Notes under the pieces: model-generated | Seen by the model: the letters and a program-made list of their open reading frames with translations, nothing else | What the model was told of the DNA's origin: nothing | Database searches by the model: none | Part shown: piece after piece, positions 14,047-17,448 of the stretch | How positions within the stretch are numbered: the first letter of the stretch is position 1 | How the letters are laid out: the number at the start of each line of letters is the position of its first letter | DNA from: a bacterium | GTDB lineage: Bacteria; Patescibacteriota; Gracilibacteria; UBA1369; LOWO2-01-FULL-3 | Direction: 5' to 3' | Length of the DNA stretch: 29,692 nt | Assembly (NCBI GenBank): GCA_027622635.1 | Contig: JAQBYK010000001.1 | Coordinates: forward strand, 1 to 29,692 | Position numbers and translations under genes: made by a program

Positions 14047-14442
14047 ATGAAATCTAAAAGTCAAATTATCAAACAGACGCTCCTAGTGTTTGCATTGATG
14101 ATCGGTGCGATCAGCCTATTCTCTGCTATTCCGATGGCAAGTGCGGTAGGACTGCTTGACGCTGGCGACAATCCAGAAGTAATTGGAGCGGCTACGGGAG
14201 GAGAAACCTCACTAAGAGGACTTATCCTAACGCTCGTTAACTACTTCCTTGGATTTTTAGGTCTCCTTGCTGTAATCATGATTATCTACGGAGGTGTCAG
14301 TTATGTGACATCTGCTGGTAATGATGAAGCTGTAGGAAAAGCTAAGAAAATCATCATGTATGCCGTTATCGGTATCATCTTGATTCTATTATCTTTCGTA
14401 CTAGTAAGAGCAGTACTCGGAGCCGGAACAGGTACTGAATAA
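14047..14442 (+). CDS. TrbC/VirB2-like pilin (CPR-type)
   Basis: Signal peptide ending ASA, then LILTLVNYFLGFLGLLAVIMIIYGGVSYVTSAGNDEAVGKAKKIIMYAVIGIIL, the two-helix T4SS-pilin pattern. Confidence 0.8.
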   Translation: MKSKSQIIKQTLLVFALMIGAISLFSAIPMASAVGLLDAGDNPEVIGAATGGETSLRGLILTLVNYFLGFLGLLAVIMIIYGGVSYVTSAGNDEAVGKAKKIIMYAVIGIILILLSFVLVRAVLGAGTGTE

Positions 14443-15153: not shown

Positions 15154-15230
15154 CGGGGTGTAGCTCAGTTGGCTAGAGTGCGCGCTTTGGGAGCGTGAGG
15201 CCGGAGGTTCGAGTCCTCTCACCCCGACCA
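15154..15230 (+). tRNA. tRNA-Pro(TGG)
   Basis: CGGGGTGTAGCTCAGTTGGCTAGAGTGCGCGCTTTGGGAGCGTGAGGCCGGAGGTTCGAGTCCTCTCACCCCGACCA; 77 nt, anticodon loop TT-TGG-GA, encoded CCA. Confidence 0.97.
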
Positions 15231-15272
15231 TAGAAAAAATGGCTCCGCCGCAGGTGGGGACAGTTTTTCTAT
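15225..15272. repeat. 48 bp direct repeat, left copy (tRNA-Pro 3' CGACCA plus downstream hairpin)
   Basis: CGACCATAGAAAAAATGGCTCCGCCGCAGGTGGGGACAGTTTTTCTAT, identical to 16534-16581. It folds as ATAGAAAAA..CTCCGCC-gca-GGTGGGG..TTTTTCTAT. Confidence 0.93.
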
Positions 15273-15449
15273 CTGCCCGTGAAAAGGACGAGAAACCAGG
15301 TTCGATTCAGTTCCACTTGCTAGGAATGACGACTGAAAGGAGGAAATGAGTAGGAAGAGAACCACAGATTAAAAGTTTTCAAAAAACCAGTTGACAAGAT
15401 GTGATAAGTATGATTAAATAATAAACCATTTTATTTTTAACCTAGCATT

Positions 15450-16202
15450 ATGGAACATATAGCAAGAAGGCACACAGATCTTAACCCTGAACAATCAGAA
15501 GACGAAATCTTCGAAACCGACGTAGCAAGTTTAAACGCACTTCGGGAGCAACTTGAAATAGGTGCCAACGACACGGGAAAAATAGCACTGTTGATAAGAC
15601 GTGAACAGGACGAAGCAAGGGCAAAACTGGTCGATGCGGTGGTTAAGCTGGCAGAGACGCCGGAAATCCCACAACAATTCAAAGCTCAGTACGACAATTT
15701 GCCCGATCAAATCAAAGTACGCTGTACCTGGAAAGAACTGTCTTACAGGCTTGTCGAGCAAGGGGATGCTCACTATCTTAAACTGGCAACGGACATGGAG
15801 GAAGGTGGAGAACTGGTTTATATAGATGAAGAAGGCAATCCCGTCTTCCGTGAAGGCGGAGTCGAGCCTGTCCTTAAAGGCAAAAGTTACAATCAGACAA
15901 GAGAAATTCTATATGGAAAAGATTATGAGGAAGGAACGCCCCACTATGGCTATGAGATGCCCAATAGTAATGAAGAATTAAGGCAGATAGAAGAAATAAC
16001 CGGCCGCTCATTCGTTGCAAGTAACAATAGAGATGAATATAGAGCGACACACATGGAAAGTGGCAAAAAACCTTCCTTCTCTCGCCGTGCTCGTTTCGGT
16101 CCGAACAGTGGGAATGTTTCCTTCTATGGCGCCTACGATCCTAACCTTGAGTCTCCGAAGCTCGGGTTGGTGCGCCTGCTAAGGGTCAAAAAAATGGCTT
16201 AG
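15450..16202 (+). CDS. Hypothetical protein with a C-type-lectin/FGE-like C-terminus (distant DUF4256-like); candidate DGR target
   Basis: 250 aa ending RRARFGPNSGNVSFYGAYDPNLESPKLGLVRLLRV. A TTGACA box lies at 15391-15396 upstream. The family resemblance is by eye only. Confidence 0.6.
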   Translation: MEHIARRHTDLNPEQSEDEIFETDVASLNALREQLEIGANDTGKIALLIRREQDEARAKLVDAVVKLAETPEIPQQFKAQYDNLPDQIKVRCTWKELSYRLVEQGDAHYLKLATDMEEGGELVYIDEEGNPVFREGGVEPVLKGKSYNQTREILYGKDYEEGTPHYGYEMPNSNEELRQIEEITGRSFVASNNRDEYRATHMESGKKPSFSRRARFGPNSGNVSFYGAYDPNLESPKLGLVRLLRVKKMA

Positions 16203-16237
16203 TCTTTGAACCTTAATTTTCTTTTTTCTTTTTCTTT

Positions 16238-16272
16238 AGCTTCCCGCAATTTGCGGGAAGCTTTTATTTTTT
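16238..16272 (+). terminator. Perfect hairpin plus T-tract (terminator and/or DGR-type downstream hairpin)
   Basis: AGCTTCCCGCAA-T-TTGCGGGAAGCT (16238-16262) followed by TTTATTTTTT. Confidence 0.75.
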
Positions 16273-16533
16273 AAATTTTTGTTGTAAGTTAATCACAACG
16301 GTGAATAGACACCTGCCCTTGGAGGTAAGGCTACCGTAGAATGTCATTTCATCAAAAAGGTTTTGAATTAAATAAGAAGCCTGAAAGACCATTATAGTCA
16401 AAATAGACCATTAGGTTTGAGTGAAAGATACTCCAACAAAAAGGGAGTGAAAAAAGCAAACCCGCCTGCGTAAGCTGGCGGAAGTTTAGCTGTACTCATC
16501 TCTAAAATAGGTTCGAGCTTCGTTCAGGAGCTG

Positions 16534-16581
16534 CGACCATAGAAAAAATGGCTCCGCCGCAGGTGGGGACAGTTTTTCTAT
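16534..16581. repeat. 48 bp direct repeat, right copy
   Basis: Identical to 15225-15272. Preceded by AGGTTCGAG (16509-16517), which also matches the tRNA-Pro T-loop (15205-15213). Confidence 0.93.
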
Positions 16582-16620: not shown

Positions 16621-17448
16621 ATGACAAACATAAACCCACAAGTTGTTTTAATCTGCGTCCACGACGGTTCACATAAGGAATTCTTAAAAAATCATCCGGA
16701 TTTGCATGAGATTTTTAAAGACTACGCTGAAATATTTGAGTCCTATCTTAAACTGGAACGCGATTTCGCAGCGCTCGCACTAACTCGAGAAATCAAAAAA
16801 CTTTTAAAAAAGGAAATAAAAGTCGCTTCAGTTGAAGTAACAGATTTGCCAAGAGGAATCATAGATGCAAATCGCACACCGGAAGAAGCAATTCGAAGAG
16901 TATTTAATCATGAAGAACATCCTGAACTGGTAAAAAAATTCATGCACACTTACGAAACAATCACAAAACAAGCACTGGAAGCACTTGAGAATCTCAGCCA
17001 GGACGGCCTTTTTCTGGATATTCATACAATGATTGATTTTAGTCCAAGTGAGCTTGTACCGATCAGCCCGGGTTCATTTGCAATGCAGGAGTACATTGAG
17101 GCGCGCACAAATCCAGATAGACTTAAAGAGCGGCGCCTGGTCAACTTTCTTACTGCACGTGAAAATCAACCCTCTTTGGCTCATCCCGGGTTAGCCGGTA
17201 ACCTTGAGAAGGGTTTCAACAGGGACAAGCTCAAAGTAAGCCACAACGACCCCTATCGCCTCTTAGATTGGACCATGCTTAATCATTACATGAGCAAATA
17301 TCCTCAAAAAGGCATCGGGATAGATATACCGATATGCGAGCTGTCAAAAGATGGTGAATCTTGCGAGATCAATCCTATACTAGATCCAAGCAAAATAGCT
17401 AGAAAAGGAGAAATCATAGCCTCTGCTATTTTAGCAACTCTATCCTAA
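16621..17448 (+). CDS. Hypothetical protein, N-formylglutamate-amidohydrolase-like Zn hydrolase fold
   Basis: LICVHDG..E, DLPRGIIDANR, FLDIHTM, and a G.DI motif resembling FGase family patterns. Confidence 0.5.
   Translation: MTNINPQVVLICVHDGSHKEFLKNHPDLHEIFKDYAEIFESYLKLERDFAALALTREIKKLLKKEIKVASVEVTDLPRGIIDANRTPEEAIRRVFNHEEHPELVKKFMHTYETITKQALEALENLSQDGLFLDIHTMIDFSPSELVPISPGSFAMQEYIEARTNPDRLKERRLVNFLTARENQPSLAHPGLAGNLEKGFNRDKLKVSHNDPYRLLDWTMLNHYMSKYPQKGIGIDIPICELSKDGESCEINPILDPSKIARKGEIIASAILATLS

What the first reader, a model, noticed from the sequence alone, without database searches (positions are those of the whole stretch)
16071..16262. Candidate DGR variable region in an orphan target gene (no RT or template in the window)
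Seen: in codons 16071-16187 only 1 of 39 ends in A, against 18 of the first 39 codons of the same gene, and only 15 of 117 nt are A. Putative variable codons are NNY (CGT, GGT, AGT, TCC, TAT, GGC, GAT, CTT, TCT) and scaffold codons avoid A (CCG, GGG, CTC, GTG, CGC, CTG, GTC). The peptide ends in a CLec/FGE-like xGxxRxxR motif, and a perfect 12 bp hairpin lies 35 nt after the stop. Established: DGRs mutate template adenines, so AAY becomes NNY in a 3' variable region of CLec-fold targets; they use a downstream hairpin, are abundant in CPR, and can act on remote targets. Inference: a trans-diversified ligand-binding protein carried on the tRNA islet.
Basis: partly seen in the sequence, partly recalled or inferred. 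Interest (0 to 1): 0.75.

Follow-up and report, generated by a model that had tools for sequence, protein, structure and literature searches.

The report
Orphan DGR variable region, cassette truncated
The adenine-poor end of this gene is a real hypervariable region written by a diversity-generating retroelement, but here the template and reverse transcriptase that relatives carry just downstream have been cut away, so it is an ordinary member of a known kind of system caught in a truncated, probably frozen state.

Summary
Codons 16071-16187 have 1 of 39 ending in A and 15 A in 117 nt. This is the most A-poor 117-nt stretch in the whole window.

The DGR reading also holds. Homologues of the 250-aa gene (15450-16202) in Peregrinibacteria/Gracilibacteria contigs lie directly upstream of a template repeat, an antisense avd and a 318-aa reverse transcriptase. 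Their VR/TR mismatches are only at template adenines: 21/21, 14/14 and 23/23.

Against two of those templates, the window's VR differs at 17 of 32 shared-A columns but at only 2 of 64 shared non-A columns. All 15 of its A's sit on template-A columns. With a deep alignment the protein models confidently (pLDDT 88.7), and residues ~110-250 take a C-type-lectin fold like Mtd, TvpA and TaqVP.

What is missing: the 84%-complete genome has no TR, avd or RT. The window keeps the conserved, apparently structured ~220-nt leader that precedes TR in relatives. Homology stops where TR should begin. The gene plus leader sit in a 1.3-kb islet with no integrase, flanked by perfect 48-nt repeats at tRNA-Pro.

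Most family members examined are orphans too. It is most likely a frozen VR from a truncated cassette. Trans diversification is not excluded.

The parts
15154..15230 (+). tRNA-Pro (TGG); its last 6 nt begin the left 48-nt repeat
   Evidence: ARAGORN; Rfam tRNA 63.7 bits
15225..15272 (.). Left copy of a perfect 48-nt direct repeat (tRNA 3' end CGACCA plus the post-tRNA terminator hairpin); left islet boundary
   Evidence: the repeat finder (48/48 identical, spacing 1309); terminator-like site 15243-15259
15450..16202 (+). DGR variable-protein (target) gene, 250 aa. It has an N-terminal helical region and a C-type-lectin-fold domain (about residues 110-250). No Pfam or NCBIfam hit.
   Evidence: ORF; homologues; AF2 pLDDT 88.7; CTLD/FGE/DGR-VP fold matches; DUF4256 and Fib_succ_major models
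16071..16187 (+). Variable region (VR), 39 codons. About 15 codons correspond to template AAY/GAC/CAT codons, interleaved with invariant scaffold codons.
   Evidence: 17/32 changes at columns where both relatives' TRs have A against 2/64 at shared non-A columns (Fisher p 2e-8); all 15 A's lie on TR-A columns
16170..16187 (+). Conserved 3' end of the VR (GTGCGCCTGCTAAGGGTC). It is identical to the VR ends of active relatives, and VR/TR homology stops here, so it is IMH-like.
   Evidence: the TRs read CTGATAAGGGTC or CTGCTAAAGGTC at this place
16238..16272 (+). Intrinsic-terminator hairpin (11 bp, 3-nt loop) plus T tract, 35 nt after the stop
   Evidence: A different stem occupies the same place in L001; L003 and G019-C6 have none
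16280..16500 (+). Conserved, apparently structured non-coding leader. In relatives it lies between VR and TR. Here it is retained without a TR.
   Evidence: 77% identical to L003 10842-11044; alignments; 43 consensus pairs, 15 with double changes against 5.8 in shuffles; also found in DUF4256-type cassettes of G007, G002 and G027
16456..16489 (+). 34-nt hairpin-containing element at the point where homology to the DGR leader decays. It is 100% identical in another genus and forms the right end of a multicopy repeat in G027.
16502..16533 (+). Degenerate stretch resembling a tRNA T-arm and 3' half (AGGTTCGAGC...), sitting where TR should start. Its 26-nt core is conserved next to tRNA-Pro in other genera.
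16534..16581 (.). Right copy of the perfect 48-nt direct repeat; right islet boundary
   Evidence: Logan contigs of the probable source run span 16461-16581 and 15243-16236 without differences

Best explanation
Gene 15450-16202 encodes a variable protein of a diversity-generating retroelement. It has an N-terminal helical region and a C-type-lectin-fold ligand-binding domain, and the last 39 scaffold codons (16071-16187) are the variable region.

In an ancestor or donor, an RT/Avd complex copied an A-rich template repeat (about 13 AAY codons) with adenine-specific errors. The resulting cDNA replaced the VR. This explains three features: template A's became any base, variable codons read NNY, and non-A scaffold positions stayed fixed.

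In relatives the cassette runs: target-VR, terminator, a ~220-nt structured leader, TR, antisense avd, RT. In this window the cassette is cut at the 5' edge of TR. The target, VR, IMH-like end and leader remain. They are followed by a short repeat-end element, a degenerate tRNA 3' half, and the right copy of a 48-nt repeat that bounds a 1.3-kb islet with no integrase at tRNA-Pro.

No TR, Avd or RT is in the assembled genome, so the VR is most likely a frozen variant that no longer diversifies.

Shown: the A-specific signature, homology to complete cassettes, the CLec fold, the truncation point and the repeats. Inferred: that the VR was written by retrohoming in this lineage or its donor, that it is now inactive, and that the protein binds a ligand.
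For: -: homologues P0004 and P0005 lie directly upstream of a 318-aa RVT_1 RT; L003 also has a bAvd.
- VR/TR mismatches are A-only in three cassettes (21/21, 14/14, 23/23).
- the window VR against the two TRs differs at 17/32 shared-A columns and 2/64 shared non-A columns (p 2e-8). All 15 of its A's lie on TR-A columns. Its A count (15) is like that of active VRs (14-19).
- the same scaffold/hypervariable pattern holds across 107 family members.
- confident model. The top 50 structural matches are nearly all C-type-lectin/FGE fold, and include Mtd 1yu0 (Z 5.5), TvpA 2y3c (Z 5.8) and TaqVP 5vf4 (Z 5.4).
- the leader is conserved up to about 16499, and TR should follow there.
- no TR, RVT_1, RT or Avd in the 1.16-Mb genome.
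- seven other family members have no adjacent TR or RT. L016 and L017 have the same flanking genes as L001 but lack the cassette.
- G023 (98% complete) has a homologue and no RT. The remote G019 copy mismatches the only TR at 12 non-A sites.
- a second assembly of the probable source run agrees across the junction.
Against: - The genome is only 84% complete, in 159 contigs. DGR modules are easily lost from MAGs: G007, rated 100% complete, has target, TR and avd at a contig start but no assembled RT.
- RVT_1 occurs in 22 of 56 genomes of the same GTDB family, so an unassembled RT is plausible.
- The VR is as A-depleted and as close to relatives' TRs at non-A sites (9/84 against L003) as active VRs are. 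The leader is intact. So either the loss was recent or the element is still served in trans.
- No raw-read data were available to test for present-day variation; only contigs were.
Confidence: 0.7

Rival explanations
1. The VR is an active remote target. A cognate TR, Avd and RT exist in the unassembled 16% of the genome or on an unbinned element, and still rewrite 16071-16187 in trans through the intact IMH-like end.
For: - The genome is 84% complete and fragmented.
- RT is missing from the assembly of G007 although its cassette is present.
- RTs are common in the family, in 22 of 56 genomes.
- The VR 3' end is identical to those of active relatives, and the VR is not decayed.
- Roux et al. 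2021 (PMC8144416) note that remote targets exist and are missed by adjacency-based surveys.
Against: - blastn with 7-nt words over all 159 contigs finds no TR-like copy.
- There is no RT or Avd by profile or tblastn.
- The locus's own cassette is truncated at TR.
- In G019, the one near-complete relative with a remote copy, that copy does not match the TR at 12 non-A positions.
- Contigs of the probable source run show no alternative VR; this is weak evidence, because contigs drop rare variants.
Confidence: 0.2
2. The truncation is an assembly artefact. The true locus carries TR-avd-RT, and the assembler jumped across repeats (VR/TR or the 48-mers), or the 1.3-kb unit is a separate circular molecule wrongly threaded into the chromosome.
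For: - Perfect 48-nt repeats create an ambiguous graph node.
- Depth is low, about 6x.
- The same-genus genome G001 has contig breaks on both sides of this site.
Against: - Logan's independent assembly of the probable source run gives contigs covering 15243-16236 and 16461-16581 with no differences, so the leader-to-repeat junction exists in the reads.
- No RT or TR contig is anywhere in the bin.
- 48 nt is shorter than typical reads, so an assembler can span it.
Confidence: 0.05
3. It is not DGR-related. The A-poor stretch reflects amino-acid composition or selection on a conserved C-terminus.
For: The invariant C-terminal motif GVVRLLRVKK and the scaffold residues are under strong purifying selection across the family.
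Against: - Changes are concentrated on columns that are A in relatives' templates (17/32 against 2/64).
- Homologues have TR, Avd and RT with A-only mismatches.
- The variable positions use NNY-type residues family-wide.
Confidence: 0.02

Closest known systems
CPR (Patescibacteria) cellular DGRs, 'clade 2' of Roux et al. 2021 (PMC8144416), first surveyed by Paul et al. 2017
   Same: - The relatives have a cellular cassette with a C-terminal VR on a small target that has no recognisable Pfam or transmembrane domain, a short RT (~318 aa), a bAvd, and adenine-specific VR/TR mismatches.
- Roux et al. predicted that such unannotated CPR targets are new C-Lec variants. The model here bears that out.
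   Different: - The window itself lacks TR, Avd and RT; only the target, VR and leader survive.
- I could not check whether this exact target cluster is in their supplementary tables.
- In this clade avd lies antisense between TR and RT, and a conserved structured leader precedes TR. I did not find this described in the papers I could read.
Structurally characterised DGR variable proteins: Bordetella phage Mtd (1YU0), Treponema TvpA (2Y3C), Thermus TaqVP (5VF4)
   Same: C-type-lectin fold with the VR forming the C-terminal part and ending in a G-x-x-R-type motif. VIA-align gives Z 5.5, 5.8 and 5.4 over 116-132 residues.
   Different: - There is no detectable sequence similarity.
- The Z scores are middling, and the fold assignment rests on how consistent the hit list is.
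- The N-terminal helical region is unrelated, and no signal peptide or membrane anchor is seen.
Pfam DUF4256 (PF14066)
   Same: - It is the best predicted-structure match (ESM Atlas cluster, TM 0.49/0.60, 151 residues).
- It has a similar C-terminal ...G-x-R-x-x-LRV ending.
- DUF4256 proteins are targets in the same type of cassette, with the homologous leader, in G007 and G027.
- DUF4256 genes neighbour two orphan family members.
   Different: - The window protein does not match the PF14066 model (E > 1).
- The family profile does not find the DUF4256 targets significantly.
- Only 1 of 107 family members hits PF14066, at 2.6e-5.
- It is a fold-level sister, not a member.
tRNA-associated genomic islets with att-like direct repeats
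   Same: The islet is inserted at the 3' end of a tRNA gene, has perfect direct repeats that include the tRNA terminus, and has a degenerate tRNA 3' half at the distal end.
   Different: - It is only 1.3 kb, with one cargo gene and no integrase.
- Only 6 nt of the repeat are tRNA; the rest is the post-tRNA terminator.
- No empty site could be recovered in the same-genus genome because of contig breaks.

Membership tests
Diversity-generating retroelement (complete, active system) | VR at the 3' end of a target gene that differs from a template repeat almost only at template adenines | tested here: inconclusive
   The genome has no cognate TR to compare. By proxy, against the TRs of two homologous cassettes, the VR differs at 17/32 shared-A columns and 2/64 shared non-A columns. 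The homologues' own VR/TR pairs are A-only.
Diversity-generating retroelement (complete, active system) | Template repeat (TR) present in the genome | tested here: not met
   blastn with word size 7 over all 159 contigs finds only the VR itself. The genome is 84% complete, so absence is not proven.
Diversity-generating retroelement (complete, active system) | DGR-type reverse transcriptase | tested here: not met
   There is no PF00078 match at E <= 1 in the own genome. tblastn with the RTs of L001 and L003 gives no hit better than E 1.4.
Diversity-generating retroelement (complete, active system) | Accessory protein Avd | tested here: not met
   tblastn with the L003 bAvd gives no hit better than E 2.3.
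DGR variable (target) protein family | Homologues are targets inside complete cassettes | tested here: met
   L001, L003 and G019-C6 have the target followed by TR and RT; L003 also has an annotated bAvd. A contig in run X6 has the leader followed after 71 nt by a TR-like copy.
DGR variable (target) protein family | C-type-lectin fold carrying the VR at its C-terminus | tested here: met
   AF2 gives pLDDT 88.7, above 95 over residues 71-250. In VIA-align, about 45 of the top 50 chains are CTLD/FGE fold and include Mtd, TvpA and TaqVP, with Z 5-7. Atlas returns DUF4256 and Fib_succ_major. Foldseek against PDB gives only weak matches.
DGR variable (target) protein family | Conserved IMH-like 3' end of the VR where VR/TR homology stops | tested here: met
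   16170-16187 is identical to the VR ends of L001, L003 and L004. The TRs differ there by one A and diverge immediately after GGTC.
DGR variable (target) protein family | Present-day hypervariability of the VR within the population | not testable with these tools
   Only Logan contigs were available, at about 6x depth. They show no variant, but contigs drop rare variants.
Pfam DUF4256 (PF14066) | Match to the family HMM above the gathering score | tested here: not met
   There is no hit at E <= 1. 1 of 107 relatives hits at 2.6e-5. The family profile against DUF4256 targets gives E 8.5. Structural similarity is TM 0.49/0.60.

The most novel reading that the evidence does not exclude
The ~220-nt structured leader between VR and TR has no Rfam match and is conserved across cassettes with different target families. 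It may be a functional cis element of this CPR DGR clade. On this reading, the window's 1.3-kb islet (target, VR, IMH and leader between 48-nt repeats at tRNA-Pro) is not mere debris. It would be a mobilisable 'target-only' module that can be exchanged between genomes and re-armed, or served in trans, by an RT/TR elsewhere. That would make this a modular way of spreading pre-diversified receptors.
Probability: 0.12. Interest if true: 0.65.

Novelty: new member of a known kind. Interest (0 to 1): 0.42.

Why it matters
- It shows that a reader can spot a DGR variable region from codon composition alone, even when no RT or template is nearby.
- It annotates a protein family with no Pfam or NCBIfam match (214 clusters at 50% identity, in Peregrinibacteria/Gracilibacteria-type CPR) as C-type-lectin-fold DGR targets.
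- It places DUF4256 among DGR targets.
- It documents that most members of the family found here are orphans. RT-anchored surveys miss these by design (PMC8144416). They include clean presence/absence of the TR-RT module between the same flanking genes.
- This gives material for asking how often DGR targets outlive their retroelement.
- The conserved structured leader upstream of TR is a candidate new RNA component of CPR DGRs.

Tried and rejected
- Pfam and NCBIfam scans of the protein gave no hit.
- A profile search of PDB sequences gave nothing.
- Foldseek against PDB gave only weak rows, E >= 0.026.
- The first AF2 model, from 12 sequences, was poor (pLDDT 60.5) and was replaced by the model from the 107-sequence alignment.
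- The search for related loci returned only 2 loci from genome contigs and 1 from metagenome contigs.
- A leader motif scan of viral contigs found nothing.
- Read laying on contigs showed no variant VR in the probable source run. This says little, because contigs drop rare variants and depth is about 6x. An apparent alternative joint in record 1 turned out to be the left 48-mer mapped onto the right copy.
- An empty-site test in the same-genus genome G001 was impossible: its contigs end 43 nt after tRNA-Pro and begin about 130 nt before the downstream gene.
- The family profile against DUF4256 targets was not significant.
- Rfam has no family for the leader. The RsaOG hit over the terminator (26 bits against a threshold of 50) is noise. 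There is no Rfam hit for the 34-nt and 26-nt elements.
- Paul et al. 2017 is not held in the library. A full-text search for DUF4256 found no paper.
- Hairpin as an obligatory DGR recognition element: rejected, because two active cassettes lack it.

Full report
**Observation.** ORF 15450-16202 (+) encodes 250 aa. In frame, codons 16071-16187 have 1 of 39 ending in A and 15 A in 117 nt. The first 39 codons have 18 of 39 and 45 of 117. Across the whole 29.7-kb window, no other 117-nt stretch has so few A's. The hairpin is at 16238-16262, with an 11-bp stem and a 3-nt loop. It starts 35 nt after the stop, folds at -19.5 kcal/mol, and is followed by a T tract. tRNA-Pro(TGG) lies at 15154-15230.

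**What the gene is.** Pfam and NCBIfam give nothing. A word-indexed search found 11 homologues, named only as hypothetical proteins of Candidatus Gracilibacteria or Peregrinibacteria. A full profile search found 214 cluster representatives. The alignments show three parts:
- a conserved core;
- a C-terminal patch in which invariant scaffold residues (P208, R212, A214, F216, P218, G221, V223, P231, G239) alternate with hypervariable positions, populated mostly by residues that NNY codons can encode (D, N, S, Y, G, R, F, V, H);
- an almost invariant ending, G-V-V/R-R-L-L-R-V-K-K.

**Relatives sit in complete DGR cassettes.** P0004 (L001) and P0005 (L003) lie directly upstream of a 318-aa RVT_1 reverse transcriptase. 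In L003 a bAvd gene above Pfam's cut-off lies antisense between the repeat and the RT. Each locus has a 118-nt direct repeat of the gene's 3' end about 410-420 nt downstream. All mismatches are at adenines of the downstream copy: 21/21 in L001 and 14/14 in L003. A same-family genome, G019 (99% complete), has a third cassette with 23/23 A-only mismatches. These are textbook VR/TR pairs. A contig in a groundwater run (X6) also shows the leader followed, after 71 nt, by a TR-like copy.

**The window's VR carries the same signature.** I aligned it codon for codon with the TRs of L001 and L003. It differs at 17 of the 32 columns where both TRs have A, and at only 2 of the 64 columns where both share another base (Fisher p 2e-8). 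All 15 of its A's lie on template-A columns. The last 18 nt of the VR (16170-16187) are identical to the VR ends of the active relatives, and VR/TR homology stops exactly there. So the stretch is a DGR-written variable region; I put this at about 0.95.

**Fold.**
- With 12 sequences the AF2 model was poor. With 107 it reached pLDDT 88.7, and above 95 from residue 71 on.
- An exhaustive structural comparison gave a top-50 list made almost entirely of C-type-lectin-like and FGE-type domains over residues ~110-250. It includes the DGR variable proteins TvpA (Z 5.8), Mtd (Z 5.5) and TaqVP (Z 5.4).
- The Z values are middling. The case rests on how uniform the list is.
- The best predicted-structure match is a DUF4256 cluster (TM 0.49/0.60). 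Several Fib_succ_major clusters, another family of CLec type, are also listed.
- One family member hits PF14066 at 2.6e-5. The window protein and the family profile do not. It is therefore a fold-level sister of DUF4256, not a member.

**What is missing.** The genome (1.16 Mb, 159 contigs, 84% complete) has no TR-like copy and no RVT_1. tblastn with the relatives' RT and Avd finds nothing. Locally, 16261-16462 is 77% identical to the VR-to-TR spacer of L003. Multiple alignment shows the homology running to about 16499, ending with ...CTCATC against ...TTCATC in relatives, which is where TR begins in them. In place of TR the window has three things:
- a 34-nt element (16456-16489) that is 100% identical in another genus and forms the right end of a multicopy repeat in G027;
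- a degenerate tRNA-like 3' half (16502-16533);
- the right copy of a perfect 48-nt direct repeat (16534-16581).

The left copy of that repeat (15225-15272) starts in the last 6 nt of tRNA-Pro. The gene and leader are therefore the only cargo of a 1.3-kb islet with no integrase. An earlier first-reader note (e1-5333681) described the same repeats, and I confirmed them independently. Logan contigs of the probable source run cover 15243-16236 and 16461-16581 without differences, so the junctions are in the reads.

**Orphans are common in this family.**
- No adjacent TR or RT was found for P0002/L004 (the closest homologue), P0010, P0011, P0012/L016, P0006/L017, P0008/L018 or L014.
- L016 and L017 have the same flanks as L001 (a large upstream gene on the opposite strand, a UvrD/PDDEXK helicase in L001 and L016, and an S1-domain gene downstream), yet only L001 has the leader-TR-RT module.
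- G023 (98% complete) has a homologue and no RT.
- In G019 the remote second copy differs from the only TR at 12 non-A positions, so it is not a current target.
- Orphan VRs drift. L016 has 33/81 non-A changes against the L001 TR and 26 A's. The window has 9/84 against the L003 TR and 15 A's, like active VRs. The window's VR is therefore either recently orphaned or still served in trans.

**Caution on absence.** G007 is rated 100% complete and has target, TR and avd at a contig start, yet no RT in the assembly. RVT_1 occurs in 22 of 56 genomes of the GTDB family. I therefore give the frozen-orphan reading 0.7 and trans activity 0.2.

**The hairpin.** It has the form of an intrinsic terminator. 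L001 has a different stem at the same place. L003 and G019-C6, both with clean A-only VR/TR pairs, have none. So it is not an obligatory DGR element here.

**The leader.** Seven cassettes share a conserved non-coding element between the terminator and TR. They include DUF4256-type targets in G007 and G027 and an unannotated target in G002, each with A-biased VR/TR mismatches (19/20, 19/20 and 16/17). RNAalifold predicts 43 pairs. Of all cells, 96.8% are paired. Fifteen pairs change on both sides, against 5.8 +/- 1.7 in shuffles and 3-6 in slid controls. The structure was derived from the same seven related sequences, which inflates these figures. Invariant G-U pairs point to the + strand. Rfam has no match.

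**Comparison with the literature.** Roux et al. 2021 (PMC8144416) report four relevant points:
- DGRs are enriched in CPR;
- CPR 'clade 2' DGRs are cellular;
- their targets usually lack recognisable domains and probably hide new C-Lec variants;
- remote targets are missed by RT-anchored surveys.

The present case fits that picture. It is a new member of a known kind, seen in a truncated state.

**Verdict.** The DGR/CLec interpretation is supported. The 'trans-diversified' inference is unsupported but not excluded.

Noticed in passing
window 16280-16500; L003 10860-11085; L001 10870-11045; L011 1195-1445(-); L035 2000-2225; L033 495-725(-); L034 1680-1905(-): A conserved, apparently structured ~220-nt RNA leader lies between VR and TR in Peregrinibacteria-type DGR cassettes with different target families. 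It has 43 consensus pairs, 15 of them with compensatory changes, and no Rfam family.
   Followed up: partly
L033 788-1624(-) (G007); L035 1175-1957(+) (G027): Bona fide DUF4256 (PF14066) proteins are DGR targets, with VR/TR mismatches 19/20 at adenines in each. A full-text search found no paper mentioning DUF4256.
   Followed up: partly
L003 11223-11567(-); L035 2354-2698(-); L033 26-373(+, antisense to its target): In this DGR clade the avd gene lies between TR and RT on the opposite strand and overlaps the RT start. This differs from the usual avd-TR-RT order.
   Followed up: partly
window 16456-16489: A 34-nt hairpin-containing element is 100% identical in G004:C15. It is 97-100% identical at three contig ends of G027, where it ends a multicopy repeat after a gene terminating ...AKLELR*. 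It may be a mobile-element end sitting at the cassette breakpoint.
   Followed up: partly
window 16502-16527: A 26-nt T-arm-like motif (TAAAATAGGTTCGAGCTTCGTTCAG) is 100% conserved in G031, 7 nt from the 3' end of tRNA-Pro(tgg) on the other strand. Together with the next 12 nt (16502-16539) it is 92% identical in G004:C27, and that longer stretch is abundant in contigs of three groundwater and aquatic runs (X1, X2, X6).
   Followed up: partly
L001 10001-12465 vs L016 4700-5537 and L017 2308-3093: There is clean presence/absence of the leader-TR-RT module among loci that share the downstream S1-domain gene; L001 and L016 also share an upstream UvrD/PDDEXK helicase (L017's upstream gene is unannotated). 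The orphan copies show progressively drifted VRs.
   Followed up: partly
L011/L012 (G019:C6 ~418560-420000): The RT next to the G019 cassette reads in two overlapping frames, with a THTHTH-coding simple repeat at the switch. This may be a frameshift or an assembly error.
   Followed up: no
L003 8372-9841(-) and 12762-14039(-); tRNA-Pro(cgg) 14152-14228(-): The L003 cassette is bracketed by two AAA_14/DUF4143 ATPase genes and lies next to a tRNA-Pro. G023's orphan copy lies about 320 nt from a tRNA-Asp. tRNA-linked placement recurs.
   Followed up: no
window 16621-17448: The gene downstream of the islet has only a weak N-formylglutamate amidohydrolase (PF05013) match, E 9e-4 and below the cut-off.
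   Followed up: no
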